Position numbers and translations under genes: made by a program. Below, piece after piece: positions 773-64,000 of a stretch of 64,000 nucleotides of DNA. The stretch's first letter is position 1, and the number at the start of each line of letters is the position of its first letter. The stretch is from Cetorhinus maximus (taxonomy: Eukaryota), in the NCBI RefSeq assembly GCF_964194155.1, contig NC_135891.1, positions 78,120,001 to 78,184,000 on the forward strand, in the 5' to 3' direction. The notes below the pieces were generated by a model. It ran no database searches, had not been told where the DNA came from, and was given only the letters and a program-made list of their open reading frames with translations.

Positions 773-1400
773 TTAGGAATATAGGACTTAGGAGCAGGAG
801 TAGGCGATTCAACCCTTTGACCCTGCTGTGTGATTCTATAAGATCATGGCTGATCTGGTTGCGGTCTCAACTCCAGCTCCCTGTCTGCCCCGCCATAACC
901 ATTAACTCTTTTGTCAATCAAAGATCTATCTAACTCTGCTTTGAATAAATTCAATGACCCAGCCTCCACTGATCTCTGGGAAGAGAATTCCAAAGACTAA
1001 TGATCCTCTGAACAAAAGAAAAATCCTAACCTCCATCTTAAAAGCCCTTATTCTGAAAATGTATCCCTTAGTTCTAGCCTTCCCTGAAGAGGAAACATCC
1101 TCCCAGTATCCATCCAATCAATCCCCTCAGGATCTTCTATGTTTCAGTAAGGTCACCTCTCATTCTTTTAAACTCCAATGAATACAGGCCCAACCTATTC
1201 AATCTTCCTTCATAAGATAAGCTCCTCACCCCAGCAATTAATCGAGTGAACTTTTTCAGAGCTGCTTCAAATGCAATTATATGTTTCTTCAAATAAGGAG
1301 ACCAAAACTGTACACATTATTCCAGACATGGTCTCATCAAGGACCTGTACAGCTGCAGTAAAACTTCACTACTTTTATATTCCATTCCCCTTGAAATAAA
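773..1400 (-). mobile_element. CR1-type LINE 3' fragment; its inner part is repeated at about 12311-12650, 26691-27030, 44206-44540 and 55244-55580
   Basis: Tail motif taggagcaggagtaggc(c/g)attc resembles the one at 32648. The minus-strand translation (RTKGYIFRIRAFKMEVRIFL) resembles the CR1 ORF2 C-terminus. Confidence 0.7.
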
Positions 1401-1462
1401 TCACATAATTGTTACAGCGCAGCATGAGGCCATTCGGCCCATTGTATGTGTACTGGCCTCTC

Positions 1463-1832
1463 GACACAGGGCCATCTGTCATTTGTTTCTATGTTGTGCT
1501 TTCACAGAGCGCTGACCCTTGCTCTGCTATTAACACATTCTGCTCTCTTATCTTTATGCCACAATCAACACCTTCCTTACTCTTCACCATGACCATTAAC
1601 ACTCCCATTGCCTTGTGTCCATGACATCTTTGTCAATCTCTCCTTAGCTGTCACCTATCCCTCACCTTCTATCTCATTCCACTTGCTCCACCCCGTCTTT
1701 AATAATATAATATCCATCATATTTCTACTTCTCTTTATCTCTGACGAAGAGTCATACGGACTCAAAACATTAACTCTGTTTCTCTCTTCACAGACGCTAC
1801 CAGACCTGCTGAGTTTTTCCAGTATTTTCTGT
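1463..1832 (+). mobile_element. Penelope-like-element terminal repeat remnant with decayed hammerhead motif; also at about 12706-13117, 27088-27378, 44595-44962 and 55640-56050
   Basis: Contains CTGACGA-a-GAGTC-atacg-GACTC-aaaacatt-aactctgtttctct...cagacctgctgagtttttccag, the layout of PLE-associated minimal hammerhead repeats. Family assignment is from recall, not a search. Confidence 0.6.
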
Positions 1833-2167
1833 GATTAAATGTGTTCCTGGAGGTTTCATCACATGACTTTTCCCCACACAGCAGCCATTAGTCGGCCAAC
1901 ACATCCATCTTTGTGACGTACTGCCTTTCTACGTCAATGAAAGGAAAAAGGCTCATTACCCAAATGGATGAGGCTTGACTCTCAGCCAAACAGCCTTTTA
2001 CCCCCAGTTTCAATATTTTTAATATCTGGTATAGAGAAATGTTGAAAGAAAATTTAAAAAGAACTGTCCCTTTTATGATTTGTCTCCGGATTTGCACAGC
2101 AGTGTCTTGGAGATTGATCTTCAATTTCTGGAGACTCCAGGCCAATCCTGGAGGGTTGGCAACCCTA
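1833..2167. mobile_element. Non-autonomous DNA transposon remnant (hAT-like), one terminal inverted repeat retained
   Basis: Ends in ...ctccaggccaatcctggagggtTGGCAACCCTA (reverse complement TAGGGTTGCCA, a hAT-type terminus). Present, with variants, just upstream of every promoter. The other end was not found. Confidence 0.5.
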
Positions 2168-2209
2168 TCCTAGAGTAGCGCACTATAGGGAGATGGTGGT
2201 GCCATTATA

Positions 2210-2430
2210 CATCTGTCTATATTTTGCTTTCATATCCAAGGAGGCTCCAAGTATAACTGTCTATAGTGGAACAGACTTGAGTGCCTGGGGGTCAGTTGCT
2301 AAAGTGTCATTTGGAGCAGGAATCCGGGCTGACGGGTCGGGCTTATTAAACATGCTGAATACCTTCCCAGGTAACCTGTGGGACAGGGAGCCGCCCCAAT
2401 GGGATTGGCCCCCAGTTCCCGGCTATAAAA
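2210..2430 (+). promoter_or_regulatory. Copy 1 promoter: E-boxes, GC box, inverted CCAAT pair, TATA (distal CCAAT deleted)
   Basis: CATCTG 2210-2215, CATTTG 2308-2313, CCGCCC 2391-2396, CCAAT-GGG-ATTGG 2396-2408, TATAAAA 2424-2430, about 50 bp upstream of ATG 2476. Confidence 0.7.
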
Positions 2431-2475
2431 CGGGCTGGTGTGCGGGGATGTGATTATCCTGGTTCAGTAACCGAG

Positions 2476-5400
2476 ATGGGACGTTGGGTATTTTGTTGGT
2501 CTCTCTGCTTCTTAGCTGGGTCTTTACTCCCAGCCCAGCCGTTACTTCTCGGGGATGATGTTTGTGTCCCAGAGCCAGGCTGGAGATTTGAGTGCGGACG
2601 CCCCGGGATCAGCAGCAGTGAGTGTACCAGTCAGGGTTGCTGCTTTGACCCGCAGAGCCCCAATGACCATCCCTGTTTCTACAGCCTGAGAAACAGCCCA
2701 GGTAACAAACCCCCTCACGATTCTAGGGGGAAATACTAGGCGAGAGAGGAGAAAATCTAACAGCTGACTAGATTGAGTGGATTGTGGTTTCCATAATGAA
2801 ACCAATTGTTCCTCGGGTGCGGGGGAGGGGTGGAATTCTTTTACTGGGTGAAAAGAATCTTGAGCATGATGAAAAAATGGTAACTTTGTAGAACGTCTGC
2901 AAAGATTACGAATGAGTGACCCTATACTAATGCTGAAGTATTTATCCCTTTAGTGGAATCCTAATGGGAAATTTTAGCCCATGATGGCAGTAAATAGCAA
3001 ACCTGTGAATTTTTCCCTCCAATTTTTGGAGTGTAGGTCACATTTACTCAGTCATGCTGCTTGTAATAGTCTATAGATTTCCAAATAGTGAGGTGTGGAA
3101 GAACAAATCTGAAGGGAAACCACAAGTTTGCAACCATGCAGATATTGGGGGATTTTAACATTACACTCTACACCAAACAATATCTGGACAATTAATAAAG
3201 GAGAGGGATTTCTGAACTGTCTTCAGGAGCACTACTGTGATCAGTGTTCCTGGCCAAAATAGAGAGGTGTTGCTGGATCTGGGGCTGGAAAAAGAGCTGG
3301 GCCAATTGGGCAGTTTCTCTGGGGAGCATCTGGGTAAGACTGATCATTGCATCACAGGGTTTAGATTAATAATGACAAATGAGGAACATTCTAATACAGA
3401 ACTTCAAAATTGGAATAGAGCGCACTTCAATGCAGTGAGGAAGGATGGAACTATAGACTGACAGGAGAATTTAACAGAACAATGGGTGATCTTTAAGGAT
3501 GAGATGCTTCAGGTGTATGCCAAGTGCATTCCAAAAACAGTGAAAGGTAAGGGAGCCAAAATCTGCTGCTTGGATGTTGGGGATTAGAGGGTGTATGATG
3601 CACGTTGGGTGACCTTTCCTTTTGTTATTTAAAAACAAAAGTCACATACAATAGGTTGAGGTGAAGAGGAGAATGAGATTAGAAAAGGCATTGACTGCCA
3701 TTCTATCCTCAATGTAAAAGGAGCTCTGATCTTCTACCAGCAGGTAAATGGTAAGAGTAATGCCTCTATATGTTTAGGAGGTGCAGAGCAAGGCTAGAAT
3801 ACCTGAACACAAATACAAGGTACTCACTATTAAAGAAGAGGAATCTCTTTGAATATTGGTAGAAGTGGAGGCAGTGGACAGTATGGAAATTGAAAGGGAG
3901 AAGGTACTGGAAAGGTTGGTTACGCTTAGGGTGTTAAATCACCCAGTCAGATGGCTTGCGTTGCAGGTTGTTAAAGGAAATGGAGGCGGAGACAGATTAT
4001 GGTAAACCCTTTCACTTTTGATTCCCCTAAATCTGGGTAGATGTTGCAGGATTGGAATGTGATGCCCTTATTCTGTAAGTCTGAGTCACTACATGACAAT
4101 TAAAGTAACAACATCATTTAATTTTTTCTTGATTAAAGATTTCAAAACCTTAACAGATGCTTGGTGAGGCTAGAAATTAAGGGGAAATGGCCTTTTTGGT
4201 GTAAAAAGGCAGTTTGTGTTTGAGGGAGTGTAGTGAATGCTGACCATAGATTTTAAGAAAGCATTTGACAAAAGGCTGGTTAATGAAGAATAGGATCTTC
4301 TGGAAGAAGTCAGCAGAATGGGCAGAGAAGTGGCAGATGGAATTTTAAGGGAAGTGGTGCATTTTGGCAGAAGGAATAGGGAGAGGCAATTCTGAAGTGT
4401 GCAGGGACTTGGGGAAGGGGGTGCATGTGAATCTATTGTTGAGGATGACAGGGTGTAGAGTAATATGTAAAGTACATGGGATCTTGTGCTTTTGTGCTCT
4501 AAAGCAGGTAAGTTGTGATGAACCTTAACAAATCTCTGGCTGGGCCACAACTAGTCCAGTTTTGGGGAGCGTGTGAAGGCTCTTAACGGTGCAGAGGTGA
4601 CTTAACCAAGATTCCAGAGTTGGTGTTGGAAAAGCTAAGCCTCATGGAGAAAAAGGTATTGTGTGGATTTCAGGTGTACAAGATTATGATGGGCCCAGAT
4701 AAGGTAGACCAGAGGGCTGGTCCCATTAACTGATAACTAAGGACTAGGGGCATAGACTTAGGATCCTGGCCAAGGGAATGTGAGGAAGTTTTTATTTTTA
4801 AGAGCAAGTGATAGTGCCCTGGAAGCCTGCCTGTAAGGGTGGTGGACGCAGCAAATACTATTGGTTTTAGAAGAAAATTGAATGGGCACTAGGGGATCAA
4901 GCTGGGGAGTGGGACTAACTGCACCATGGGAAGCTGGCATGGACCTGATGAGCTGAATGGTCTCCTGTGCTGTAAGTGACTCTTATGACCTTGTGACTCT
5001 TCAGTTAAAATGAAGTTAGTTTGTAGAGCTGGTAATGTTCCATACAGAAAAGTCTATGGTACTTCAAGGCACTATAGATCAGTTCAGTTGTGTCACTGCA
5101 TTTAGAGGACTAGATGAGCTATTTGTGGCTCTGACTGAATCCTCCGATGACCTGAGGCCCCTAACCACCAATAGGAGCAGTGGAAATGAATTTTCATTCC
5201 TTTTTGCAGTGTGCACAGCAGATGGTCAGTTCATCATAGTGATCTCCAAGAATCTGACCCGTCCTGCCCTCAACCTGTCGTCTCTGTATGTGAAAGATGG
5301 ACAAGAAGCTGAGTGCAGGCCTAAACTAACCACTGGGCAACTTGTGGCCTTCTGCTTTCCAATCATCTCTTGTGGCTCAAGCAAGTGGGTGAGTATTGAA

Positions 5401-8400
5401 GGGCCAAGCATTTTCTCAGTAAATGAGGCAGCTTCCTATTAAACTGTGTCCTCATTACAGGAGGGAAATAGAACCTTGGTGTATGAAACGGCTGTCTTGG
5501 GGAAGAGGATGATTCAGACTGGGAAGCTGGGCTCAATAACCTGGGACAGCACCTTCCGGTAGGAGGATGGTGGGAGATGTTAGTAAGGGGTGGGGAGGGT
5601 CTGATAATGCATGAAGCTCAACTACTTCTGTTTCTGTGCAGCCTGAATGTTCAGTGCAAGTAGAAGGGTTGGGGGTGGTTGGGGCGGGGGGAGGTGCAGG
5701 AAACAGGCTTGCAGGTCAATGTCACAGTTTACACTGTTTCTCCTCCACCTCCTGCTTCTGAAGATGGGATTTTGAAACTGGAACTGCAAATGACAAAAGG
5801 TAGAGCTGTCCTGGGTAATGGTGAATGGAAGCACTGGGAATGTATCCATACAGGGAGTGACTAGTCCTTGTGTTTGCCTTTCAGGTGGTAACTACAGATC
5901 CTGGTATGTAGATAGTGACTCCCCCATTCAGCATGTTCTTCAGGACCCAGTGTTTTTGGAGGTTCGTGTCCTGGATCGCACTGACCCAATGATTGTCCTG
6001 AGTTTGTGTGACTGCTGGGCAACTCCTGTCCCAGCCCCAAACCATGAGGTGCAATGGAGTCTACTGGTGGATGGGTAAGGAGTATGAATGGAAAGACTAA
6101 TGTTCGAAGTTCATAGTAATAATGGACAAGGATCAAACTTGTCCTAAGTCTGATAAGCAATGTGATAAGACTGCTTCCTACCCCAATCACTAGGGAGAGT
6201 CAAAACCCAGGGCCTAGGAAAATTGAATCTAGTCTAGGAGGCCAAATGAGCCACTTGGCCAAGTGGTAAAGCAACTTGCCTTCTAACTGATGGAACCTTC
6301 ACCCATCAGGAACTAGTGTCATGTCTTGATTTGCAGAGTCAGCACCCATTGCACCAGCCAGTGGTGTATTCCAGAATATCTACTTCTTGGCAAAATGGGA
6401 GAAGCGTGCTGTCTATTCTACTTTCATATGTCCTCTTGCAATCAGACATCCTACAGCCCTTTATTGAAACAAGGCTACACACTTCAGGAATGAATAATCA
6501 CTGATCAATGAGTGTGGCTAAGCTTCTTTAAATTGAGTATCGTACAGAGCTCTTAATAGGTTGTACCCCTAAAAGTGGTTCTAGTACTCTAGACAGTAAC
6601 CATTGTTAATGATAGGTATCCCTTTTGTGTTGAATAATTTCAGTAATAGAATGGAATTCATTTTGTTTTGGCTCCAGTTTATCTCCATTAGTCTTGAACA
6701 TTGCTGTCCTTCAGTATTAACCCACTACACTGGGAGAGCCAAATGGGTAACCCAGCTTTAGAACAATGGAGGAAACTATTTGGAAACATTTCATGAAAGA
6801 ATGGGCTCTACTCTGGAGCCCTTGTTACCAATGCCCAAAACTGCTATTTAGAGGTGCTATCAATAGATCAGGTACCTGTTCCTGGCTCACTGACTGACTG
6901 AACCCTCATGTTACAGGTGTCCTTATGAGGGTGATGACTATCAGACTCTCCTACACCCATTGGATGTGTTTTCTGGCCTCACATTCCCAACTCATCACAA
7001 GCGGTTTGAAGTGAAGACTTTTTGTTTTCTTGGATGGAGAGTCTGAGCAGCCTCTCTCTGAACAGGTAACCAAATTGAATGAAGTCAACCAATTGCTCCC
7101 TTATTGGCTAATGGCTCCTTTTGTATAACAGCCTGGTTCATCTATCTAGACAGAGCTCTCTTTAAATTAACTCCTTGCCTTTTAGGTTTACCTGCATTGT
7201 AGTGCTGATGTTTGCTCTCCTTCTGCTTAGGATGACTGCACACCCAAATGTGGCCCAAGTGAGTTCCTTGTTTTAATCTCTTACTGAATCAGGATTACCT
7301 CAGCCTCCTTAAAGCCAAGCTTCCCTTTGAAGGGAATAGTGTCTTGTGATTGGGGTTTCTCTTTGATCCCCCACAGTGTGAACAGATCCTCCAATGGGAA
7401 GAGCCTTTCTATGAATGGGTGCTCCAGCTCTTTGGAAACTCTGGAGCCTGACTGCATCCCTCTTGATGGCCACTTGTTGCAAACATAGTCCTGGTCAGCA
7501 CAAAGCACAGGTGCCACTAACCTCAAGATCCTAGTTGAAGATCCAGCAATCTGTAGTGATGAATATTATTCCACTGCATGCTAAAGGATGTCGTGTTCTT
7601 AATGGAATCCCAACATGGAGCTGTGGTGTCATCAATATATAAGCAAGCTCAACTTTCAATTATATGCTTTAGAACAAAGACCAGAACAGTGAAGTTTGAT
7701 ATTTCAGCTTCTATATTCAATCAACAAGCCTTTAACAATCCAGAATCTTCAGGGCAAGTTTGTTCAGCAGTTATTCCTCAGCATTACACCCCTTGAAGCT
7801 GAACTATAGTTTCTAATAGCTATGATGTTGGGAAAGCTCTCACCAGAATGAGTTAATTGTGTTCATTGCTTATTCAGAGCAGTGTGGCAGGACAGTGAAC
7901 GATGTGGTGGCTTCTTTCATCTGCAGTTGTGCTCAGATTGAGGGGTAAACACTTGTTGTCAAAGTGTGCAAATTGCAAGCCTTGAGTAGAAGTAGGCAAT
8001 TTGTTCATCCTTGCTTAGATACTCAAGAATCACATGCTGCTTGCTAGTTCTCCCTCTTGGGAGATTGGTGTCTGAATTGGCTCAGAACTGTACTAACTTC
8101 TCTCTTTCCAATAGAGAGACGCAGGAGTACCAGTGACCATGAGGGAATATTAGTGAGTGCTCCTGGTCCTATCATTTTCCTGGAAGACCATCATCTTTCT
8201 TCAGAACTGCATGAAGCAAATGGTAAGTAGAGCCTTTTCACTAGGTCACCTGTGAACTCTCTCTCAGATATAATGTCTTCTAATTTCCCAATAGGTGCTG
8301 CTGAGTCTCCTTCTTGGGCTCTACAAGGAGCAGCTGTTGGCTTCATGATGGTGTCTCTGTCCCTGCTGGTGGTGATGGCTGCTGTGTATATGAAGAGACC

Positions 8401-8440
8401 AAAAGCTGTTGCTTCTCAATGGAATGGAATTGAACTGTAG
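2476..8440 (+). pseudogene. ZP1/ZP4-like (ZPB) egg-coat gene copy 1, disabled
   Basis: Exons 2476-2701, 5210-5388, 5461-5558, 5642-5799, 5885-6074, 6917-7065, 7186-7258, 8115-8222, 8295-8440, all GT-AG. Lesions relative to copies 2/3: TAC>TAG 5661-5663, a net +24-nt G-rich insertion in 5667-5696, +1 T in the T-run at 7019-7023, and GAG>TAG 7228-7230. Confidence 0.9.
3040..4990 (+). mobile_element. Ancient degenerate CR1 ORF2 remnant filling intron 1; also at about 14380-16197, 28600-30523, 46280-49855 and 57290-59190
   Basis: Decayed endonuclease/RT motifs (VYR.PNS, GDFN, LDL.L, HLG.SDH, DF.KAFDK, W.EKWQMEF) and a tail ...gatgagctgaatggtctcctgtgctgtaagtgactcttatgacc. Shared by all five copies, so it predates the array. 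Confidence 0.7.
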
Positions 8441-8446
8441 ATCCTG

Positions 8447-8452
8447 AATAAA
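8447..8452 (+). terminator. Polyadenylation signal, copy 1
   Basis: AATAAA 6 nt after the stop codon, at the same position as in copies 2 and 3. Confidence 0.6.
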
Positions 8453-10369
8453 AAAGAACCAAAGACAAATGTGCCTTGAGGTGTTTGTGATTGATGAAAT
8501 ATGGAGTAGCAAGGGTCAACTAAACAAGTGGTGTTGAATGGAATCTCCCTGATGGGAAGGACATGGTGGAAACTGAAGCTAAACTGTCAGACATAGCAGC
8601 TAATCTAACCTACAGTATCTAGTTTTTAGCTGGCTAAAGGTACTTTAAATAGTTAAGCATCATGTCAGTTCTTCAAAGCAACTTTCAAAGCCTGAATATG
8701 CACAAGTAATATGTTTTGGTGTTTGTTTTTTTTTGGACAATACACCTGAGTTTTAGGGAAGAATTCATGTGACTTTCTCCAAGTGTCGCACCCAGTAGAA
8801 TCATTTAGACATGCTGCAGCATCTAGTGCTTGAGGAATGCTCTCTACAGGAGTGAATCGACTTCCAGGGATGAAGAATAGCTAATTATGCAAATTATACA
8901 CAACTCTGCCCCTCCATCTGGTCTCTAACTAGAAAACACTGTCTTTTCAGTATTTACTTTGAGTTGCTTTTACTTAATTGATCAAGGCTGTGTAGGGATG
9001 ATCAGTGTAGATGGTCTAGTGCATGTGAGTTTGTGGAGAGTATTGTGAACCCAGGTAATCTGGATCTTGGAGCCTTCAGCTCAGTGTTTGAGCCAGCCTT
9101 GGGTACAAACATTGCAGGGCATCAGGGGAAGTTACCTGAATGCTTTGAGAGAGGCTATAACACTGAATCCTACAACACTGGCAGGCTGATGACCTTCAAT
9201 GCCAACTATTTGAACAAGCTAAGACAATTTGTACCACTTTTCCATGTGTTGAAGAATATCTTTAACCTCAAAAACCACTAACACGTTTTAGTTTTGTTTG
9301 CAATCTGAAAACCCAGGTATTTTCTAAAAGAATGGAGTTGCAAGGTTCATAGTTTAAAGCACATTTTATCACAAATCAGAGAACCTGAAGCCTTTAACAA
9401 AACTAGGCTAACTTAAACAGTTAAGATACTAAAAATACAATGAACAGTCACTTGTACTAATGTCTTAACCCCTGCTACACCAGTTTGACTTACACCCGCA
9501 ACAACTAGGGCTAATATCAGAAACTTTTAAACCTCACCATTTTAAAAGGGGTGAGGTTTTCCAGGCCCATCCTCTTTTGCAAGGTTGTCCCATCAAATCT
9601 CCTATCACATGGCTGTGAATTCCCTGCATATCTCTAGCATAAGTGTAACCACTGTGGGTCTGAACTCTCAGTTCTAGTTTACCTCTGGCCTTGTTTTGCT
9701 CACTCACTCACACAGGAATCCTTCAGTTAACAGTTTTAATATGTTAGCCAACACAAGATTTTGACTGAATGCTGTATGGAAGATATATCCTGCACCAAGC
9801 TTGTTTCTAAAAACCCTGTTTGAAACAACCACATCTAGGAGCCTACTTACTCCTATAATTGTGGTGACACTTGCTCTATTTATCTCCCAGGTTTATCTCC
9901 CTGTTCACAATCATTTGCTGGAAGCAATGTCCTTTACCAGAGTCCCTTTCTGACAACCGACTTCTGAAAAGGGTCACGGCTCAAATGTAAAATAGTTTTT
10001 TCCTGGAAACAAACACACATGGGCCTTCACAGGCAGGAAGGTGAGTGTGAGCCAGGCAGGCACAGGGACCTCTGATGCAACACTGCAGGTGCTTTGCTGT
10101 TCAATCAACAGGTACAAAATTCTTGCTGTATGCATGTATTTAAAAACAACATGGTAATAGAAAAGCTGTCTGTGGTACAGGAGGCTATTCAAGTGGAGGT
10201 GTTAAAAGAAATGTAAATATAGTCAAATGACAGATACTGTCCTCTACAAGCACAACAAGCTGCATTGCCTGCTTCTTACCAGGATTCACTCTGTGGGGAA
10301 ACAGGTTTTGCCTCACCAATGGTGACAGTCTGGGGAAAGGGAGAGCTGTTGAACAGGTTCAACTCAAAA

Positions 10370-12240
10370 CAGGCGCAGTCTCAATCAATGGGTAGGAATC
10401 AGAGAGTGTTCCAATTAAATCTGGAGTCAGGCAGGGCTGTCCTCTCTTCCCTGTCCTGTTTGTGTGTTGCATAGAACCCTTTGCTGAGGCCATCAGGAAG
10501 GATCTGGGCATAAGTGGAGTGACAATCCCATGCAGTGGAGGCACTCAGGTCAAAGCCTCCCTGTACATGGGCGATGTCGCCGTCTTCTGCTCAGATCCGT
10601 TGTTGGTGTGCAAACTGATCAACATCTGTGAGCATTTTGAACTGGCCTCGGGAGCCAAGGTAAATTGTGGGAAGAGCGAGGCCATGTTCTTTGGGAACTG
10701 GGCTGACCGATCCTTTGTCCCCTTCACCGTCAGGTCAGACGGCCTGAATGTGCTAGGGATATGGTTCAGAGGGACTGGGGCATGCATTAGAAACTGGAAG
10801 GAGCGAGTGTGGAAAGGTGTGGAAAGAAAACTGGGCATGTAGGAGCAACGCTCCCTCTCCATTGCGGGTAAGAACCTAGTCATCAGGCATGAGGCACTCT
10901 CGCTGTTGCTGTACGTGGCGCAGGTTTGGCCCATTCCACACTCCTGCACGATGGCAATCACCTGAACCATCTATTGCTTTATCTGGAGGTTGAAAATGGA
11001 TCGTGTCCACAGGGAAGCGATGTACAAGCCTCTAGATAAAGGGGGAAAAAACGTGCCAAACATCGCCCTCATCCTGATGGCCACCTTTGTGTGCGGCTGC
11101 ATCAAGCTGTGCGTAGATCCTCAGTACGCAAACACCAAGTGTCACTACGTGCTGAGGTTCTACCTGTCCCCGGTGTTGCGAAGGATGGGTCTGGTCACGC
11201 TGCCGCGGAACGCTCCAAGTAGTTGGACCGTGCCGTACCACCTATCCCTCGTGGAAAAATTTATGCAGAGAAACACCTTTGACCACAAGTCCATCAGGCA
11301 GTGGTCGGCACGTAACGTCTTAGAGGCCCTGCAGGAAAAGGAGAGGGTGGATCCTGTGGGATGGTTCCCCGAGCAGACTGTCAAAGTCATTTGGCAGAAT
11401 GCCTCATCGCTGGAGCTTTCCAACAAGCACCAAGATGTAGCTTGGCTGGTGGTGAGAAAGGCCCTCCCCGTCAGGTCCTTCCAACATACCAGGAGTCTCA
11501 CCCCCTCTGCACGTTGCCCTTGAGGTGGCTGTGGTGGGGAAGAGGCTGTTGTTCACATCCTTGTGGAATGTACCTATGCAAAGAAGGTTTGGAGAGAGAT
11601 GCAGTGGTTTTTGTTGAGGTTCATCCCGAGCAGTTCTGTGACACAGGACTCTGTGCTCTACGGGCTGTTCCCAGGGACACACACCGAGACAAACATCAGC
11701 TGCAGCTGGAGGATCATCAACTCGGTGAAAGACACTCTTTGGTCTGTCCGAAACTTGTTGGTCTTCCAGTGCAAAGAGTTGTCCCCAACCAAGTGTTGCA
11801 GACTGGCACATTCCAAATTCCAGGACTACATGCTGAGGGACGCACTAAAGCTTGGGGCAGCCACTGCTAAGGCCCAATGGGGAAAGGTCGTTGTCTAAGA
11901 CCTTTCTGCCATAGTGCACTGAGGGGCTGGGAAAGGTATAGACCCCTCGGGCTGTACGGTTCACAATACATGTATGCATTGAATACTAATTGTATTATAA
12001 TTGTATTGAGGCACCTCAGAGTGCAATATGATGTATGTTGATAACTCCAATACCATTGCACTGCCTGATTGTCTGTAATGACCATATTGAAATGATTGTA
12101 ATATTCATTGATTGTATTGAAGCACCTCATGATCCATGTGTAAAAGTTGAATCTGATTGCACTTTTTGTGATGGTGATTTAGAAATGATTTGTAATGTTC
12201 TTTCAGATATTTTATGAATAAAGTATATTTTTCAAAAAAA
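10370..12240 (+). mobile_element. 5'-truncated Tx1/L1-clade LINE (RT C-half, zf-RVT, 3' UTR, poly(A)), private to the copy 1-2 spacer
   Basis: Motifs CIEPFAEAIRKD, LYMGDV (YMDD-derived), ASGAKVN..KS, and C-terminal CP.GC...HILVEC. AATAAA near 12217 is followed by an A-tail. AACTCAA flanks both sides (10361-10367, 12241-12247). Internal stops are present. The element is absent at the homologous sites near 26620, 44135 and 55175. Confidence 0.85.
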
Positions 12241-13557: not shown

Positions 13558-13673
13558 CCAATGGAGACGGGCTGACGGCTCGGGCTTATTAAACATGCTG
13601 AATACCTTCCCGGGTAACCCGTGGGACAGGGAACCGCCCCAATGGGATTGGCCCCCAGTTCCCGGCTATAAAT
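13558..13673 (+). promoter_or_regulatory. Copy 2 promoter (complete): distal CCAAT, GC box, CCAAT/ATTGG pair, TATA
   Basis: CCAAT 13558-13562, CCAAT-GGG-ATTGG 13639-13651, TATAAAT 13667-13673. Confidence 0.7.
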
Positions 13674-13718
13674 GGGGCTGGTGTGCGGGGATGTGATTAT
13701 CCTGGTTTAGTAACCGAG

Positions 13719-20407: not shown

Positions 20408-20413
20408 ATCCTG

Positions 20414-51600: not shown

Positions 51601-53241
51601 GGAAAAATTTCATGAAAGAATGGGCTCAACTCGAGCCCTTGTTAACAACGCCCAAAACTGCCATTTACAGGTCCTATCAGTAGATCAAATACCCCCTTTC
51701 AGCTCTCTGACTGACTGAACCCTCCTGTTACAGGTGTCCCTATGAGGGTGATGACTATCAGACTCTCCTACACCCAGTGGATGTGTTTTCTGGCCTCACG
51801 TTCCTAACTCATCACAAGCAGTTTGAAGTGAAGACTTTTGTTTTCTTGGATGGAGAGTCTGAGCAGCCTCTCTCTGAACAGGTAACCAAATTGAATGAAG
51901 TCAACCAATTACTCCCTTATTGGCTACTGGCTTGTTTTGACTAACAGCCTGGTTCATCTATCTAGACAAAGCTCACTCTAAATTAACTCCTTGCCTTCTA
52001 GGTTTACCTGCATTGCAGTGCTGATGTTTGCTCTCCTACTCAGGATGACTGTACACCCAAATATGGCCCAAGTGAGTTCCTTTATTGTAATCCTGATTTC
52101 AGTAAGAGATTAACTTAGCATCCTTAAAGCAAAACTCCCCTTTTGAAGGGACCAGTGTCCTGTGACTAGGGGTATCTTTGATCCCTCCCAGTGTGAACAG
52201 ATCCTCCAATGGGAAGAGCCTTTCTATAAATGGGTGCTCCAGCTCTTTAGAATCTCTGGAGCCTGACTGTATCCCTCTTGATGCCCATTTGTTGCAAACA
52301 TAGGCCTGGTCAGCCACCAGCACAGGTGCCGCTAACCTCAAGATCCTAGTTGGAGATCCAGCAATCTAGTGATGAATATTGTTCCACTGCATGCTAAAGG
52401 ATGTATAGTGTTCTTAGTGGATTCCCAGCATGGAGCTGTGGTGTCATCAATACATAAGCAATCACAACTTTGAATTAAATGCTTTAGAACAAAGACCAGA
52501 ATAGAACTTTGATATTTCAGCTTCTATGTTCAATCAACAAACCTTTAACAGCAATCCAGAGTCTTCAGGGCAAGTTTGTTCATCAGTTATTCCTCAGCAT
52601 TACACCCCTTGATGCTTAACTATAGTTTCTAATAGCAATGATGGTAGGAAAGTTCTCACCAGATTGAGTTCGTTGCTCATTCAGTGCAGTGTGATAGAAC
52701 AGTGAATGGTGCGATTTCTTCTTTCATCTGCAGTTGTGCTTACCCCTCAGAGCACTTGTTGTCAAACTCTGCAAATTGCAAGTCTTGAGTCGAAGTAGAC
52801 AATTTTTGCATCCTTGCTTAGATAGTCAAGAATCACATGCTGCTTGTTAGTTCTCCCTCTTGGGAGATTGGTATCTGAATTGGGTCAGAACTGTACTAAC
52901 TTCTCTCTTTCCAATAGAGAGACGCAGGAGTACCAATGATCATAAGGGAATATTAGTGAGTGCTCCTGATCCTATCATTTTCCTGGAAGACCATCATCTT
53001 TCTTCAGAACTGCATGAAGCAAATGGTAAGTAGAGCCTTTTCACTAGGTCATCTGTGAACTCTCTCAGATATAATGTCTTCTAATCTCCCAATAGGTGCT
53101 GCTGAGTCTCCTTCTTGGGTTCTACAAGGAGCAGCTGTTGGCTTCATGATGGTGTCTCTGTCCCTGCTGGTGGTGATGGCTGCCGTGTATATGAAAAGAC
53201 CAAAAGCTGTTGCTTCTCAATGTAGTGAAATTGAACTGTAG
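45637..53241 (+). pseudogene. ZP1/ZP4-like gene copy 4, disabled
   Basis: Exons 45637-45850 (12-nt deletion), 50077-50254 (-1 frameshift, TAG 50103-50105), 50327-50424, 50506-50639, 50725-50913 (TAG 50760-50762 plus a 1-nt deletion), 51734-51881, 52002-52071 (3-nt deletion, last ZP Cys>Tyr), 52918-53025 and 53096-53241. Confidence 0.9.
47890..49524 (-). mobile_element. 5'-truncated CR1-type LINE (RT region) nested in copy 4 intron 1
   Basis: SQHGF..RSCLTNLIEFFE, VDVVYMNFNKAFDKVPH, SGVPQESVLGPLLF.IYINDI, ISKFADDTK. It splits the empty-site sequence aaagatatt|gtgtggattt seen in the other copies. Confidence 0.9.
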
Positions 53242-56200: not shown

Positions 56201-59200
56201 CTGTCCCTTTTATGATTTGTCTCCAGGTTTGTACAGCAGTGTCTTGGAGATTGATCTTCAATTTGTGGAGACTCCAGGCCAATCCTGGAGGGTTGGCAAC
56301 ACTACCCTAGAGTAGCGCACTATAGGGAGATGGTGGTGCCATTATACATCTGTCTATATTTTGCTTTCATATCCCGCAGGGATACTCCAAGTATAACTTT
56401 CTATACTGGAACAGACTTGAGTGTCCGGGGGTCAGTTGCTAAAGTTTCATTTGGAGCAGGAATCTAGCACTAACCCTGGGGAACCAATGGAGACGGGCTG
56501 ACGGCTCGGGCTTATTAAACATGCTGAATACCTTCCCGGGTAACCCGTGGGACAGGGAACCGCCCCAATGGGATTGGCCCCCAGTTCCCGGCCATAAAAC
56601 GGGCTGGTGTGCGGGGATGTGATTATCCTGATTCAGTAACCGAGATGGGACGTTGGGTGTTTTGTTGGTCTCTCTGCTTCTTAGCCGGGTCTTTACTCCC
56701 AGCCCAGCCGCTACTTCTCGGGGATGATGTTTGTGTCCCAGAGCCAGGCTGGAGATTTGAGTGCGGACACCCCGGGATCAGCAGCAGTGAGTGTACCAGT
56801 CAGGGTTGCTGCTTTGACCCGCAGAGCCCCAATGACCATCCCTGTTTCTACAGCCTGAGAAACAGCCCAGGTAACAAATCCCCTCGCGGTTCTAGGGGAG
56901 GGAGGAGAAAATCTAACTTGTAGATCAGGAGCTGATCCAGGGATTTGTTGCTGTCTCATTGTGTAATGGAGACAGGTAGGAATGGAGGTGGTTCTCAGCT
57001 AGAGTTCTGACTGAAGCAGCTGACTAGGTTGGGCGGATTGTGATTTCCATAATTAAACCGATTGTTGCGGGGGGACTTTTTTTTTACTGGTAAAACGAAT
57101 CTTGGGCATGAGAAAATGGTCAGTTTAGTAATGTTTGCAGAAGTCCTACAATGAGTGAGTGACCCTGTACGAATGCTGAAATATTTATCTCTTTAGTGAA
57201 ATCCTATATGGACATTTTCATCCATGATGACAGTAAATAGCAAACCTGTGAATTTTTTTCCATCCAATTTTTTTATGTAGGTCACATTTACTCAGTCATG
57301 CTGCTTGGAATAGTCTATAGATTTCCAAATAGTGAGCTGTGGAAGAGCAAATCTGAAAAGCAATCACAGGTGTGCAATGATGGTGACTTTGGGGAAATAT
57401 AAACACCGAACAATATATGGAAAATTTAATGAAGGGGTGGGATTTCTGAACTGTGTTCAGGAGAACTTCTGTGATCAGTGTTCCTCTCCCAAATGGAGGA
57501 GAGATGTTGCTAGATCTGGGGCTGGAAAAAGAGGTGGGCCAATTGGGTAGTGTCTCTGGGGGGCATCTGGGTAAGAATGATCATTGCATCACAGGGTTTA
57601 GATGAATAATGACAAATGAGGAACAATCTAATACACAACCTGAAAATTGGAATAAAGTGAACTTCAATTCAGTGAGGGAGGATGGGGCTAGAGACTGACA
57701 GGAAAATTTAACAGAACAATTGGTGATCTTTAAGGAAGAGATGCTTCTGGTACAGTTTCGGAACATTCCAAAAAGCAGTTAAAGGTAAGGGAGCTGAAAG
57801 CAGCTGCTTGGGTGTATGATGCATGTTGGGTGACTTTTCCTTTTTTTTAAAATTATATAAAAATAAACAGGTCAAATACAATAGGTTGAGAGTTGAAGAG
57901 GAGAATGAGACTAGAAGAGGCATTGAGAATAGAATGGCAGTCAACGGAAAAGGCGCTCTAATCTTCTACCAGCAGTTGAATAGTAAGAGGGTAGTGCCTC
58001 TATGTTTAAGAGGTGCAGAGCAAAGCTAGAATACTTGAACACCAATACAAAGTATTTACTACTAAGGAAGAGGAATCGCTTTGCCTCCACTTCTGCCAAT
58101 ATTCAATGGGTAGTATGGAAATTGAAAGGGAGGAGGTAACTGTAAAGATTGGCTATGCTTGGGATGTTAAGTCACCTAGTCTTGCATACCAGGTTGTTAA
58201 AGGGAATGGAGGTGGAGACAGATTATGGTAAACCCTTTCACTTTTGATTTCCCCTAAATCTGAGGTGATGTTGGAGGATTGGAATGTGATGCCCTTATTC
58301 TGTAAGTCTGTGTCACTACATGACAGTTAAAATAACAGTTGTATTTAATTTTTTGCCTGATTATAGATTCCAAAACCTTAACAGATGCTTGGTGAGGCTA
58401 GAAATTAAGGAGAAATGGCCTTTTTGGTGTAACAAGGCAGATTGTGTTTGAGGGAGTGTAGTGAATGCTAACGATAGATTTTAAGAAAACATTTGACAAA
58501 AGGCTGGTTATAGGATCTTCCTGGAAGAAGGTGGCAGCTGGAATTGGAAGTGAAGTGGTGCATTTTGGCAGAAAGAATAGGGAGATTCAATTCTGAAGTG
58601 TGTGGGGACTTGGGGAAGGGGGTGTGTGTGAATCTATTGTTGAGGATGACAGGGTGTAGAGTAATGTGTGAAGTACATGGGTTTTGGGATTTTGAGCCCA
58701 AAAGCAGGTAAGTTGTGATGAATCTTCACAAGTTCAGGTTAGGTCACGACTAGTCCAGTTTTAGGCAGCATGTGAAGGTTCTTAAGGGTGCAGAGGTGAC
58801 TTAACTAAGATTCCGGGGTTGGTGTTGGAAAAGCTGGGCTCCTTAGAGCAAAAGATATTGTTGTGTGGATTTCAGGTGTACAAGATTATGATGGGCCCAG
58901 ATAAGGTAGACCAGAGAACTGGTCCCATTAACTGATCCTAAGGACTAGGGGCATAGATGTAGGATCTTGGTCAAGGGAATGTGAGGAAGTGTTTATTTTT
59001 GCTGCAAGTGGTAGTGCCCTGGAACCCTGCCTGCAGGGGTGGTGGAAGCAGCAAATAGTGTTTTTTTTTAGAAGAAATTTGGATGGGCACTAGGGGATCA
59101 AGCTGGGGAGTGGGACTAACTGCACCATGGGAAGCTGGCATGGATTTGATGAGCTGAATGGTCTCCTGTGCTGTAAGTGACTCATGACCTTGTGACTCTT

Positions 59201-61023
59201 CAGTTGAAATGAAGTTAGCTTGTACAACTGGTAATGTCTCATATTGAGGTCTATGGTACTTCAAGGCACTGCAGATTGGTTCAGCTGAGTCACTGCATTA
59301 AGATGGAAAGTTTGAGAACACTAATGACTCCTCTGCAGGCTTCACAATTTTATTAAATTTTCTACTCTAATGTCAATCACAATGGAAAATTGGTTCCCTT
59401 GCAGGGGTGGAGGAGAGCTGTTTTCAGTGAAACTTTGCCTTTTCTTCACTGCCCACCAGCTCTTGCTTGGGGAGGGGTGTTTGTTTATCCAACATTGGAG
59501 CAGAGCTGTGCTAGCTGCCAATATCTGGATTTCTTGTTTACCAAATATCCTTGCTCACTCCTCCAATTAAAGCAATTGGTTAAGTTGAAAGAGGACTAGA
59601 CGAGCTATTTGTGGCTGTGACTGAATCCCCCAGTGATCTGAGGCCCCTAACCACCAATAGGAGCAGTGGAAATGAATTTTCATTCCTTTTTGCAGTGTGC
59701 ACAGCAGATGGTCAGTTCATCATAGTGATCTCCAAGAATCTGACCCGTCCTGCCCTCAACCTGTCGTCTCTGTATGTGAAAGATGGACAAGAAGCTGAGT
59801 GCAGGCCTAAACTAACCACTGGGCAACTTGTGGCCTTCCGCTTTCCAATCACCTCTTGTGGCTCAAGCAAGTGGGTGAGTATTGAAGGGCCAAGCATTCT
59901 CCCAGTAAATGAGGCAGCTTCCTATTAAACAGTGTCCTCATTACAGGAGGGAAATGGAACCTTGGTGTATGAAACGGCTGTCTTGGGGAAGAGGATGATT
60001 CGGACTGGGAAGCTAGGCTTAATAACCCGGGACAGCACCTTCCGGTAGGAGGGGGGGGTGGGAGTGGTGGTAATTCATGAAGCTCAACTACTATTGTTTC
60101 TGTGCAGCCTGACTGTCCAGTGCAAGTACAAGGGGAGGCAGGAAACAGGCTTGCAGGTCAATGTCACAGATTACGCTGTTTCTCCTCCACCTCCTGCTTC
60201 TGAAGATGGGATTTTGAAACTGGAACTGCGAATAGCAAAAGGTAGAGCTGCCCTGGGTAATGGTGAATGGAAGCACTGGGAATGTAACTACACAAGGAGT
60301 GACTGGTCCTTGTGTCTGCCTTTACAGGTGGTGATTACAGATACTAGTATGTAGATAGTGACTACCACATTCAGCATGTTGTTCAGGACCCAGTGTTTGT
60401 GGAGGTTCATGACCTGGATCGCACGGACCCAACGATTGTCCTGAGTTTGCGTGACTGTTGGGCAACTCCTGTCCCAGCCCAAAACCATGAGGTGCAATGG
60501 AGTCTACTGGTGGATGGGTAAGGAGTATGAATGGAAAGACTAATGTTGGAAGTTCATAGTAATAATGGACAAGGATCAACCTTGTCCTAAATCTGAGCAA
60601 TATGGTAAGACTGCTCTCTACCCTAATCACCTGGGAAAGTCAAAACTGAGGGCCTAGGTCAACTGAATCCAGTCCAGGAGGCCAAATGAGCCACACTTGG
60701 CCAAATGGTAAAGCAACTTGTCTTCTAACTGATGGAATCTTCCCCCATCTGGAACCAGTGTCATGTTTTGATTTGGAGAGCCAGCACCCATTGCACCAGC
60801 CAGTGGTGTATTCCAGAATCTCTACTCCTTGGCAAGATGGGAGAAGCATGATGTCCATTCTGCTTCCATATGTCCTCTTGTAATCAGACATCCTACAGCC
60901 CTTTATTGACACGAGGCTACACTTCTGGAATGAATAGTCACTGATCAATGAGTGTAGCTAAGGTTCTTTAAATTGGGTATCGTACAGAGCTCTTGACAAG
61001 GTTGTACCCCTGAAAGTGGTTCT

Positions 61024-61847
61024 GGCCAGTGCCCCGCAACCTGAGCTGCCTCACGGGAATGCCCTCCGTGTCCTTTAGCACGGCAAGGAGGGGTTTCCTG
61101 TACGGGCTGCTGCTGCACATCCTTCACTTCCTTACCCTCACCTGCCGCCTGGACATGTCCTGGCGTGCCTTGTTGCCATGAGGCGGCAGTGGTCCCCGTT
61201 GGGGGGCCCTCTACGGAGGTGTCCTCCCACTTTCCATCAGGGTCCTGGGGTGGAGGGTGTTGCACGCAGCAGTCCATTACAACCGGAGAATGTGTCGGTT
61301 CACGGACTCCCGCGAGATCTGCCCTTTTTGCGGCCTTGTGGAGTCCGTGGACCACGTTTATATGTAGGGTGTTGCAGGCTGCACTCCCTTTTCAGTTATT
61401 TAAAGAACATTTTACTGATGTTTTGTTTGCACTTCAGTCTCATGCTCCTGATCTATGGGCACCCGGTGCGGAGGGGGGCCAGAAGGGAGGAGGACCTCCT
61501 TGCGAACCTGCTCCTGGGCCTGGCCAAGTTAGCTATTAACAGGTCCAGGCAGTGGGCGATCAAGGGGGTCACCTGACCTGACTGTCTACCCCTTTTCTGC
61601 GGCTACGTTTGTGGCCGGGTGTCCCTGGAGAGAGCACGCGGTGTCTGCTGGCACTGTCAAGGCCTTCGTGCCCGGTGGGCACCGTGGGGACTGGGGTGTT
61701 TTATCAATCCCCTTAATCACGTTTTGATTTGATGTTTAAGTTTTCTTTAAATTGTGTCTTTGGTTTTACCAGTACCCTAATTTAGGGGCTGCGTTTATTT
61801 TGTCCTTCATTTTGTTATTTCAGTTTATTTGGTTGACTCCGAGAGTT
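61024..61847 (+). mobile_element. Tx1-clade LINE 3' fragment A in copy 5 intron 5
   Basis: ORF2 C-terminal motifs (LGWRVLHAA, CPFCGLVESVDHVYVGC, NLLLGLAKLAINRSRQ) and a T-rich 3' UTR. Flanked by aaagtggttct at 61013-61023 and 61849-61859. Confidence 0.8.
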
Positions 61848-61860
61848 AAAAGTGGTTCTA

Positions 61861-61965
61861 ATGGTTGCGTGGTGGTGATATCAGTGGATCAGCGATCCAG
61901 AAAGACAGCCTAATGCCCTGGGGACAGGGGTTCAAATCCCACCATGGCAGTTAGTGGAATTTTTC
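61861..61965 (+). mobile_element. tRNA-derived SINE head fragment
   Basis: B-box GGTTCAAATCC at 61929-61939 followed by caccatggcag, with an A-box-like segment near 61868. No cloverleaf could be folded. Confidence 0.55.
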
Positions 61966-63654
61966 TCTGCCCTGCTGAGGAATCCTGGCCGGTGAACTGG
62001 CAGGAGCTGAAGATGAAAGTCACCACTCGCCTGCGGCACTGAACAGGACTGCTCCGAGTGCTGTCTTACTGGGGTTGAGTTCTGGCCATAAACCAGCTGA
62101 TTGCCGCCATGTTGTGGTACCAGCCGGTCACTTTGACCCCTCCCCCTGGACTATGTCACAAAAATCCAGAGAATGCTCATCGACTTCTTCTGGGACAAAA
62201 GGCTGCACTAGGTTGCTGCTGAGGTTGAGTCTCCTGCATGTGGAGGGTGGTCAGCTGCTGGTGTGCCTACGCACCCAGGTGGTGACCTTTCACCTTCAGG
62301 CCCTGCAGTGATACCTTTACATTGAGCGTCCTCCGAGATGGTGTGCCCTGGCGACGTATTTCTTCCGCCAGGTGCATGGCCTGAATTATGGCGTGCAGCT
62401 CCTGTTTATAGACCTGAGAGGCCTTCATGGCTCCTTGTAGGCATTGCCCGTCTTTTACCAGGACCTGATCAAAGTCTGGAACGTGGTCGCCTCACGACGC
62501 AGCTCTCTGCCATCGGGAGTAGTGGTTATCATCAGAGCCGCTGCTCGGGAATCTGCCCCTCCACCCTTTTCAGTGGCTGGTGGAGAGGAGGGCTGTGGTA
62601 CCAGGGTGACTAGGATCGGATGTGCTGGGTGGCAGAGGAGTGGGCTGGATGCTTCTGCAGGAGTTGGCGTGTCACATGTCCGTGGACGTCCAGCTTATGG
62701 CCAATGCCATTCAAGCCCTCAATACGGTCATGCTCAGCCCTGACATCATACTGGGCCTCGAGGTGGCGCAGGTGCATGGTGGTCTTCCATCTGAGCGTAC
62801 CCCTGTTCGGACGGAATTCCCCATTGGCCCCAAGCCTCGAACTCTCCTTCGGGAGCCGGTACCCTGCAACCTGAGCCGCCTCAAGGAAATGCCCTCCGCG
62901 TCCTTTAGTATGGCGTGGAGGGGTTTCCTGTGTGCTGCTGCACACCCTTCACTTCCTTGCCCTCGCCCGCCATCCAGACACGCCCTGGCGTGCCTTGTTG
63001 CTGTCCGGCGGTGGAGGTCCCCGTTGCGGGGGGCCCTCTACGGAGGTGTCCTCCCGCTTTCCATCGGGGACCTGGGGTGGAGGGTGTTGCATACAGCAGT
63101 CCCCTATAATCGTAGGATGTGTTGGTTCACGGATTGCCAAGATACTGCCCTTTTCGCGGTCTTGTGGAGTCGGTGGACCATGCTTACATAGGGTGTTGTA
63201 GGCTGCACTCCCTTTTCAGTTATTTAAAGAACCTTTTTATTAATGTTTTGTTTGCAGATCAGTCCCGCGCTCCTGATCAACGGGCACCACGCGCGGAGGG
63301 GGTACCGAGAGGGAGGAGGACCTCCTTGTGATCCTGCTCCTAGACAAGTGAGCCATTAACAGGTCCAGGCAGCGGGCGATCGAGAGGGCCATCCCACCTG
63401 ACTGCCCCTCTTCTGCAGCTACGTTCACAGCCGGGTGTCCCTGGAGAGGGAGCACGTGGTGTCTGCTGGCACCATCGAGGCCTTCCGTGCCCAGTGGGCA
63501 CTGGGGTGTTTTATCAACCCATTTAATCACATTTTGATTTCATCTTTTAAGTTTCCTTTAAAATTTGTCTTTGGTTTTACATTTCCCTAATTTAGGGTTT
63601 TTTTTTATTTTGTCCCTGATTTTGTTAATTAGTTTATTTGGTGGACTCAAAGTT
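61966..63654 (+). mobile_element. Tx1-clade LINE 3' fragment B (same family as A, longer) in copy 5 intron 5
   Basis: LAINQLIAAMLWY, LPVFYQDLIKVWN, LYGGVLPLSIGDLGWRVLH, CPFRGLVESVDHAYIGC. Its last ~800 bp are collinear with fragment A. Host intron resumes at ataattggttctagtac (63655). Confidence 0.8.
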
Positions 63655-64000
63655 ATAATTGGTTCTAGTACTCTAGACAGCAACCATTCTAAATGATGGG
63701 CATCCCTTAATTTTGTGTTGAATAACTTCAGTAATAGAATTCAATACATTTTGTTTTGGCTCTAGTTTATCTCCATTAGTCATGCATATTGTTGTCCTTC
63801 AGTATTATCCCACTACACTGGGAGAGCCAAATGGGTAACCCAGCTTTAGAACAATGGAGGAAACTAATTGGAGAAATTTCATGAAAGAATGGGCTCCACT
63901 CTGGAGCCCTTGTTACCAATGCTTAAAACTGCATTTGAGATCCTATCAGTAGATCAGAAACTTGTTCCCAGCTCACTGACTGACTGAACCCTCCTGTTAC

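What the first reader, a model, noticed from the sequence alone, without database searches (positions are those of the whole stretch)
1070..64000. Expanded tandem family of minimal ZPB egg-coat genes: trefoil directly after the signal peptide, no ZP-N1 or Gln-rich arm, TM retained
Seen: at least five tandem copies whose first exon joins the signal peptide to the trefoil, followed by a type II (10-Cys) ZP module, furin site, EHP and TM. Two are intact and three are disabled. Known: tetrapod ZP1/ZP4 have an extra N-terminal ZP-N domain, which cross-links filaments in ZP1; many teleost ZPB proteins instead have Pro/Gln-rich N-termini used for transglutaminase cross-linking; liver-made ZP proteins generally lack the TM. 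Inference: this is a lineage-specific birth-and-death expansion of a locally synthesised ZPB subunit lacking both known cross-linking arms. It may be a distinct chondrichthyan ZPB subfamily.
Basis: partly seen in the sequence, partly recalled or inferred. Interest (0 to 1): 0.7.

Follow-up and report, generated by a model that had tools for sequence, protein, structure and literature searches.

The report
Shark-wide trimmed egg-coat gene array
This is a real run of near-identical genes for a shortened egg-coat (ZP1/4-type) protein; the same short form and similar arrays occur in other sharks, the copies likely supply bulk filament material for the egg envelope, and they are likely kept alike by DNA exchange, so the array is ordinary for sharks rather than special to this species.

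Summary
Observation confirmed. The window holds five 9-exon copies (two intact, three broken). The array continues beyond it to eight copies plus a fragment. Exon 1 joins signal peptide to trefoil, no ZP-N1 exon lies within 264 kb, and spliced contigs from a relative join exon 1 straight to exon 2.

It is not special to this species. None of 53 orthologous models from eight other sharks has ZP-N1, and several species carry 7-10 models on one contig. Rays, chimaera, gar and bowfin share the layout. Tandem ZPB arrays are published for catfish and zebrafish.

Three additions. (1) The same genome has an intact ZP-N1-bearing paralogue that lacks the ZP1 cross-link cysteine. (2) The inverted eighth copy matches the array in the mature part (dS 0.07-0.085) but not in the tail (0.8-0.9), which points to gene conversion as well as birth-and-death. 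(3) The likely partner, ZP3, has about 100 or more copies. Tissue of expression is untested. The scan had not noted this before.

The parts
2476..8440 (+). Copy 1, pseudogene (exons 2476-2701, 5210-5388, 5461-5558, 5642-5799, 5885-6074, 6917-7065, 7186-7258, 8115-8222, 8295-8440); stops at 5661 and 7228, 24-nt insertion in exon 4, +1 frameshift near 7019
13719..20407 (+). Copy 2, intact 433-aa gene (exons 13719-13944, 16703-16881, 16954-17051, 17135-17268, 17354-17543, 18381-18528, 18646-18718, 20083-20190, 20262-20407); same sequence as database model P0001
13719..13944 (+). Exon 1 of copy 2: ATG, signal peptide (judged by eye) and six-Cys trefoil in one exon; joined directly to exon 2 in spliced contigs of a relative
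   Evidence: records 12 and 17
13639..13672 (+). Proximal promoter motifs: paired CCAAT/ATTGG at -80/-72 (8 of 8 copies) and TATA at -52 from the ATG (7 of 8 copies; changed in copy 5); motif matches only, function untested
20083..20407 (+). Exons 8-9 of copy 2: furin site, EHP, TM and short tail; the part that is only 76-77% identical to the inverted copy 8
27947..37846 (+). Copy 3, intact 432-aa gene; intron 7 enlarged to 5030 nt by an insertion
45637..53241 (+). Copy 4, pseudogene; 12-nt deletion at the end of exon 1, frameshifts near 50091 and 50816, stop at 50760
56645..64000 (+). Copy 5, pseudogene (stop at 60345); exons 6-9 continue past the window end to 65498. Beyond it, in window numbering: orphan exons 8-9 near 69300, copy 6 at 72877-80485 (open, lacks ZP-N Cys130), copy 7 at 88048-94211 (broken), inverted copy 8 at 110412-107064 (intact, 429 aa)
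1070..12245 (.). First repeat unit of about 11 kb (gene plus spacer); long intron and spacer blocks are about 80-93% identical between units and broken by insertions

Best explanation
The window shows a tandem array of short ZP1/4 (ZPB) genes (signal peptide, trefoil, 10-Cys ZP module, furin site, EHP, TM) whose intact copies likely encode an oocyte-made structural subunit predicted to be cleaved at the furin site and to polymerise with ZP3 into egg-envelope filaments, with the copy number likely serving to raise output. Shown: layout, copy states, splicing in a relative, absence of ZP-N1, and one chondrichthyan clade. Inferred: (1) ZP-N1 was ancestral and was lost once in early chondrichthyans, separately from gar and teleosts. 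(2) The mature protein has no spare Cys (16 = 6 trefoil + 10 ZP) and only 16 Gln in 332 residues, so it would be an uncross-linked core subunit; N-terminal functions would fall to other type II subunits such as the ZP-N1-bearing C9 gene. (3) Unequal crossing-over makes and kills copies, while gene conversion keeps the mature part alike between the array and an old inverted paralogue and leaves the discarded C-terminal propeptide divergent.
For: Domains. The closest solved structure is medaka choriogenin H from the fZP1/fZP3 filament (E 9e-44); passages of bioRxiv 2023.06.21.544075 describe the type I/type II two-protofilament model. Splicing: contigs from runs X2 and X3 join 13941 to 16700 directly (the 3-nt offset from my exon bounds is the shared CAG). 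Intronless near-identical ORFs on 1.1-1.3 kb contigs agree (P0135, P0138). A ZP-N1 profile finds all three C9 exons (E 6e-13 to 1e-6) and nothing under E 1.6 in the 264-kb array region. Clade: chondrichthyan short forms 100/99 in the 43-row LG+G4 tree and SH-aLRT 85 in the 62-row mixture-model quick tree. Union with all N1-less ray-finned forms is rejected (p 0.00096), with gar and bowfin alone (p 0.0005) and with tetrapod ZP4 (p 0.0012). ZP-N1 is found in 29 of 29 lamprey, 17 of 18 bichir/sturgeon/paddlefish and 6 of 6 lungfish/coelacanth models. Conversion: copy 8 versus the array is 95-96% identical over exons 1-7, 86-100% over short introns 2-4 and 6, and 74-78% over exons 8-9; dS is 0.067-0.085 against 0.79-0.94. 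The module tree groups by species and rejects grouping by tail type (p 7e-37); the tail tree rejects grouping the copies of this genome (p 0.031) and of Heterodontus (p 0.009). Dosage: a ZP3-type exon has 128 DNA candidates, and all 40 scored are 98-100% identical.
Against: No tissue is known for runs X1-X4; they are one sample of another organism, and 'RNA' is the tool's guess, backed only by the spliced joints. Oocyte synthesis is inferred from the TM alone. Only 3 of 8 copies look fully sound, and dN/dS among array copies is 0.49-0.99 on few changes, which fits neutral churn as well as selection for dose. In the tail tree, grouping of Chiloscyllium/Hemiscyllium copies was not rejected (p 0.16), and the tail is only 85 columns. 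The sister group of the short clade is unresolved (75/74; union with the C9 clade not rejected, p 0.36). AU tests used LG+G4 only, on groups named after a first tree was seen. The ZP-N1 profile was built partly from the proteins it then scored.
Confidence: 0.72

Rival explanations
1. Neutral birth-and-death: one or two functional genes suffice, and the extra copies are by-products of unequal crossing-over in a repeat-rich region, with no benefit from dose.
For: 4 of 8 copies are broken, one more lacks a conserved Cys, and an orphan fragment is present. dN/dS among array copies is 0.49-0.99. Shared indels are mosaic (copies 5 and 7; copies 3 and 6).
Against: Arrays of mostly complete models recur in five other shark genera. 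The second short clade and ZP3 are amplified too. Amplified catfish ZP4-like copies are mostly expressed in ovary (PMC13704971, passages).
Confidence: 0.2
2. The product is made outside the oocyte (follicle cells, oviducal gland or another epithelium) and serves another matrix, with the trefoil acting as a mucus lectin.
For: Tissue is unknown. Trefoil factors are mucus lectins (a reference title seen).
Against: All near relatives are egg-coat ZP1/4 proteins. The medaka ZP1 trefoil lacks the sugar-binding residues (passage; not checked for this protein). No ERE-like site with up to 2 mismatches lies within 600 nt of the ATG in 7 of 8 copies (motif recalled, weak evidence).
Confidence: 0.06
3. 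The array is partly an assembly artefact (uncollapsed haplotypes).
For: Copies are very alike (copies 2 and 3 are 99.0% identical over exons 1-7).
Against: Each copy has its own lesions and insertions, long spacer and intron blocks are only about 80-93% identical, and eight copies exceed two haplotypes. Other sharks show arrays as well.
Confidence: 0.02

Closest known systems
Vertebrate ZP1/4 (ZPB) subfamily (Feng et al. 2018, PMC6262864; first fifth of the text and passages read; supplement unreadable)
   Same: Trefoil directly before a ZP module; chondrichthyan homologues fall outside tetrapod ZP1 and ZP4; tandem species-level duplication is reported (six ZP1/4 copies in zebrafish).
   Different: The passages seen do not resolve shark paralogues, the loss of ZP-N1, or gene conversion.
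Gar and bowfin ZP4-like proteins (P0050, P0064, P0066)
   Same: Same minimal layout and length (427-432 aa): signal, trefoil, ZP module, furin site, TM.
   Different: They group with teleost, bichir and sturgeon ZPB, not with the shark genes; union is rejected, so the layout is likely convergent.
Medaka choriogenin H / fZP1 (PDB 8BQU; bioRxiv 2023.06.21.544075 and PMC10140178, passages)
   Same: Trefoil plus type II ZP module that pairs with ZP3 in filaments; no ZP-N1.
   Different: ChgH is liver-made and has a Pro-Gln-X arm for transglutaminase; the shark protein has no such arm and keeps the TM.
Tetrapod ZP1 and ZP4 (Nishimura et al. 2019, PMC6626044, passages)
   Same: Trefoil plus ZP module; furin site and TM in most.
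   Different: They carry ZP-N1, and ZP1 has the extra cross-linking Cys. The array lacks the whole domain; the shark C9 paralogue has the domain with four Cys only.
Catfish ZP3/ZP4 tandem amplifications (PMC13704971, passages)
   Same: 13-19 ZP4-like copies with pseudogenes in tandem, ZP3 amplified in parallel, ovary-specific.
   Different: Teleost lineage; the one catfish-order protein seen here has a Gln-rich N-terminus (P0097); ZP3 number is 20-22 against about 100 or more here.

Membership tests
ZP1/4 (ZPB) subfamily | Trefoil domain immediately before the ZP module | tested here: met
   PF00088 at 33-70, PF23344 at 77-176, PF00100 at 202-344
ZP1/4 (ZPB) subfamily | Type II ZP module with 10 Cys | tested here: met
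   Cys positions; all six ZP-C Cys align with choriogenin H
ZP1/4 (ZPB) subfamily | ZP module groups with ZP1/4, not with ZP2/ZPAX | tested here: met
   Falls among trefoil-bearing ZP1/4 rows against ZP2/ZPAX-type outgroups (99; only 78/68); best hits are all ZP4-like
ZP1/4 (ZPB) subfamily | Furin site, EHP and TM in the C-terminal propeptide | tested here: met
   KRRR 351-354, GILVSAPGPIIFL, hydrophobic mean 2.56; cleavage itself untested
ZP1/4 (ZPB) subfamily | Component of the egg envelope, expressed in oocyte or liver | not testable with these tools
   Spliced in one sample of a relative, tissue not on record
Tetrapod ZP1 | ZP-N1 with the extra intermolecular Cys | tested here: not met
   No ZP-N1 in 264 kb; the extra Cys is seen only in the six tetrapod ZP1-type rows of 24 shown
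Tetrapod ZP4 (database label 'ZP4-like') | ZP-N1 present and one clade with tetrapod ZP4 | tested here: not met
   No ZP-N1; union rejected, p 0.0012
Teleost choriogenin H | Pro-Gln-X N-terminal repeats; no TM | tested here: not met
   About 7 residues between leader and trefoil; 16 Gln in 332 residues; TM present
Neopterygian short ZPB (gar, bowfin) | Orthology (one clade) | tested here: not met
   AU p 0.0005 and 0.00096, LG+G4 only
Neopterygian short ZPB (gar, bowfin) | Conserved synteny | not testable with these tools
   Flanks here include a TRIM gene, an adaptor mu-subunit exon and paralemmin; no other vertebrate genome could be read
Concertedly evolving gene array | Paralogues older than the species split are more alike within than between species | tested here: met
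   Module groups by species, tail does not; p 7e-37, 0.031 and 0.009, but 0.16 for carpet sharks

The most novel reading that the evidence does not exclude
Cartilaginous fishes build their egg envelope mainly from a stripped, cross-link-free ZPB/ZP3 core whose genes are co-amplified for dose (8 short ZPB copies here, at least 3 more on C3, about 100 or more ZP3 copies). Gene conversion confined to the mature polymerising part keeps old paralogues interchangeable in the filament. An overlooked ZP-N1 and mucin-stalk paralogue shows that ZP-N1 is ancestral in vertebrate ZP1/4, was lost independently at least twice, and acquired its cross-linking cysteine only in tetrapod ZP1.
Probability: 0.45. 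Interest if true: 0.52.

Novelty: new member of a known kind. Interest (0 to 1): 0.33.

Why it matters
The array itself is what fish egg-coat genes commonly do. The comparison adds a modest, testable correction to egg-coat evolution. [quoted passage not shown] The shark protein is a natural core-only type II subunit, useful for testing what filament assembly needs without cross-linking arms. Homogenisation of the mature part but not the propeptide hints at selection for interchangeable subunits. I found no paper on shark ZP gene repertoires in nine searches of the open library. Subscription papers on fish ZP evolution (Sano and colleagues, recalled; Wu et al. 2018, seen only as a citation) could not be read and may cover part of this.

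Tried and rejected
1. Hidden ZP-N1 exon: rejected; the profile found none in 264 kb or in the C3 stretches while finding all three C9 exons.
2. Single origin of all N1-less forms: rejected.
3. Orthology to tetrapod ZP4: rejected.
4. Species-specific expansion: rejected by cluster lists.
5. Sister group of the short clade: unresolved. The careful mixture-model tree did not finish, so its quick tree is quoted. For the 43-row tree I dropped 19 of 62 rows, among them three long branches. For the module tree one of 19 rows (a gapped model) was left out.
6. Synteny: only 290 of 2320 non-repeat frames in the flanks were scanned, giving a TRIM gene, an adaptor mu-subunit exon, paralemmin and retroelement pieces; no cross-species comparison was possible.
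7. Expression: no holder is on record as RNA and no tissue is given. C9 exon 1 had no cover in the four runs, which shows nothing.
8. Insertions in the window: 13 of 14 long frames scanned, no Pfam match.
9. One search hit a common repeat and was of no use.
10. Earlier-findings look-ups by sequence and by words returned nothing.
11. Passages of PMC9154058, PMC8455134, PMC8812170, PMC13361971 and PMC8830517 held nothing on shark ZPB genes.
Full report
Observation. Self-comparison shows five repeats of a roughly 11-kb unit, 80-93% identical in long blocks and interrupted by insertions. Exon mapping gives five 9-exon genes with GT-AG introns. Copies 2 and 3 are intact (433 and 432 aa); copies 1, 4 and 5 carry stops or frameshifts. 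A search of the own genome finds 8 matches to exon 1, all within 110 kb. Beyond the window lie an orphan exon 8-9 piece, copy 6 (open, but a 9-nt deletion removes ZP-N Cys130), copy 7 (two stops, and its exon 6 acceptor reads AT) and an inverted, compact, intact copy 8. The spliced copy 2 has the same sequence as database model P0001, which its source labels ZP4-like of Cetorhinus maximus, on a contig of the same length as C13.

Protein. Pfam gives trefoil 33-70, ZP-N 77-176 and ZP-C 202-344, with no ZP1/ZP4 N-terminal domain. The mature part has 16 Cys, six in the trefoil and ten in the module, and 16 Gln in 332 residues, so neither known cross-linking device is present. KRRR, an EHP-like stretch and a TM follow. 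The signal peptide was judged by eye. The best solved relative is medaka choriogenin H.

No hidden ZP-N1. Leader and trefoil share one exon, so no exon can fall between them. Contigs from two runs of one sample of a related organism join exon 1 directly to exon 2, and one extends colinearly 140 nt upstream of the ATG (records 12 and 17). Two intronless near-identical ORFs on 1.1-1.3 kb contigs show the same order. A ZP-N1 profile finds nothing under E 1.6 in the 264-kb region but finds all three such exons of another gene.

How common it is. Among 53 named orthologous models from eight other sharks, none has ZP-N1; 41 start within 45 residues of the trefoil, 9 have longer N-termini without ZP-N1, and 3 are incomplete. 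Cluster lists show 7 models on one Mustelus contig, 10 for Scyliorhinus canicula, 9 for Heptranchias and 9 listed for Chiloscyllium punctatum, some of them isoforms or fused models. A second short clade, about 50% identical, lies on C3 of this genome in at least 3 copies and occurs in rays and other sharks; chimaera, gar and bowfin have the same layout. Tandem ZP1/4 copies are published for zebrafish (PMC6262864, passages) and, with pseudogenes and ovary-specific expression, for catfish (PMC13704971, passages). The array is therefore ordinary for sharks.

Where it sits. In ZP-module trees the short chondrichthyan genes are one clade: 100/99 with LG+G4 on 43 rows and SH-aLRT 85 in the unfinished mixture run on 62 rows. 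Joining them to gar, bowfin and teleost forms, or to tetrapod ZP4, is rejected (p 0.0005-0.0012). ZP-N1 is found in 29 of 29 lamprey, 17 of 18 bichir, sturgeon and paddlefish, and 6 of 6 lungfish and coelacanth models (the profile was partly built from these). The simplest reading is an ancestral ZP-N1 lost at least twice. The sister group is open: a lungfish-coelacanth-caecilian-paddlefish group at 75/74, or the C9 clade (not rejected, p 0.36). The test groups were named after a first tree was seen.

The long paralogue. C9:13249414-13260481 holds an open 13-exon gene of 1163 aa: signal, ZP-N1, a Thr/Val/Ala-rich repeat, trefoil, ZP module and TM. Orthologues with PF22821 exist in four other sharks and a ray. 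Its ZP-N1 exons 2 and 3 are spliced at my predicted bounds in run X3. Its ZP-N1 has four Cys; the extra Cys that cross-links ZP1 (PMC6626044, passages) appears only in the tetrapod ZP1-type rows. So the genome has ZP-N1, though likely not a ZP1-type disulfide link.

How the array evolves. Four broken copies, a Cys-less copy and a fragment show birth-and-death. Copy 8 adds conversion: it is 95-96% identical to the array over exons 1-7 but 74-78% over exons 8-9, with dS 0.067-0.085 against 0.79-0.94, and shared flanking sequence stops about 100 nt above the ATG. Two tail types occur side by side in this genome, Heterodontus and Chiloscyllium. The module tree groups by species (grouping by tail type rejected, p 7e-37), while the tail tree rejects species grouping for this genome (p 0.031) and Heterodontus (p 0.009) but not for carpet sharks (p 0.16). 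dN/dS among array copies is 0.49-0.99 on few sites, and 0.35-0.48 against copy 8.

Mechanism. By established ZP biology (bioRxiv 2023.06.21.544075, passages), a membrane-anchored precursor is cleaved, sheds its EHP and joins a type II protofilament wound round a ZP3 protofilament, with type II subunits apparently interchangeable. The shark protein would be such a subunit reduced to its core. Oocyte synthesis is inferred from the TM. Dose is the likely reason for the copies: a ZP3-type gene with an intact-looking copy gives, by my count, 67 of 150 scored ZP-C matches on C29:0-6.65 Mb and some 40 more on small contigs, and 128 DNA candidates, of which all 40 scored are 98-100% identical. Neutral churn remains a real rival. 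Tissue, protein presence and polymerisation are untested.

Verdict. Real, correctly described, and a member of the ZP1/4 (ZPB) subfamily, but neither ZP1, ZP4 nor choriogenin H. The array and layout are the shark norm. The independent loss of ZP-N1, the retained long paralogue, conversion limited to the mature part and the large ZP3 amplification are modest additions that nine searches of the open library did not find in print. The supplement of PMC6262864 could not be read and may list chimaera ZP1/4 domain layouts.

Noticed in passing
G000:C29:4939-6647279 and small contigs; L059-L070: Very large ZP3-type gene amplification: 67 ZP-C exon matches on C29 by my count and some 40 on small contigs, 128 DNA candidates, spacing about 50 kb with a 17.2-kb period at the far end; one copy inspected looks intact with a TM. 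Possibly more striking than the finding itself; depth check needed.
   Followed up: partly
G000:C9:13249414-13260481 (L030, L031), minus strand: Intact ZP1/4 gene with ZP-N1 and a mucin-like stalk of about 600 residues with many N-A-T sequons; stalk length varies from near zero in a ray to about 600 residues in sharks; no cross-link Cys.
   Followed up: yes
G000:C3:1.43-1.54 Mb (L021-L028): Second short ZPB clade, at least 3 copies in both orientations plus an extra exon 8-9 piece; 18- and 29-member clusters in Heptranchias.
   Followed up: partly
Proteins P0135, P0138, P0212: Intronless shark-type ZPB ORFs on 0.9-1.3 kb contigs labelled Salmonella or Aeromonas; likely cDNA contamination of bacterial assemblies, not horizontal transfer.
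   Followed up: partly
L014:2257-2835, L018:502-1110, L053:8816-9070, L010:635-1375: Flanking genes: RING-B-box and PRY-SPRY exons (TRIM type) and an adaptor mu-subunit exon upstream, paralemmin downstream; markers for a synteny test.
   Followed up: partly
window 24951-25140 and 42313-42828: A 41-bp minisatellite (4.6 and 12.6 copies) inside a shared insertion in the spacers after copies 2 and 3, which suggests those two units arose from one another.
   Followed up: no
window 61025-63667: Insertion in intron 5 of copy 5 bounded by direct repeats of about 830 nt at 82% identity; LTR-like, no Pfam match in the frames scanned.
   Followed up: partly
window 10375-12245: GC-rich insertion between copies 1 and 2 that looks by eye like a LINE 3' end; no Pfam match in its two long frames.
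   Followed up: partly
copy 8, 107378-107277 in window numbering (L005): Its cleavage site reads KGRR rather than KRRR, so furin processing may be weaker.
   Followed up: no
G000:C5:12.73 and 12.75 Mb; G000:C35:10.70 and 1.56 Mb: Duplicated ZP2/ZPAX-type gene on C5, another on C35, and a divergent ZP3-type gene on C35; not annotated further.
   Followed up: no
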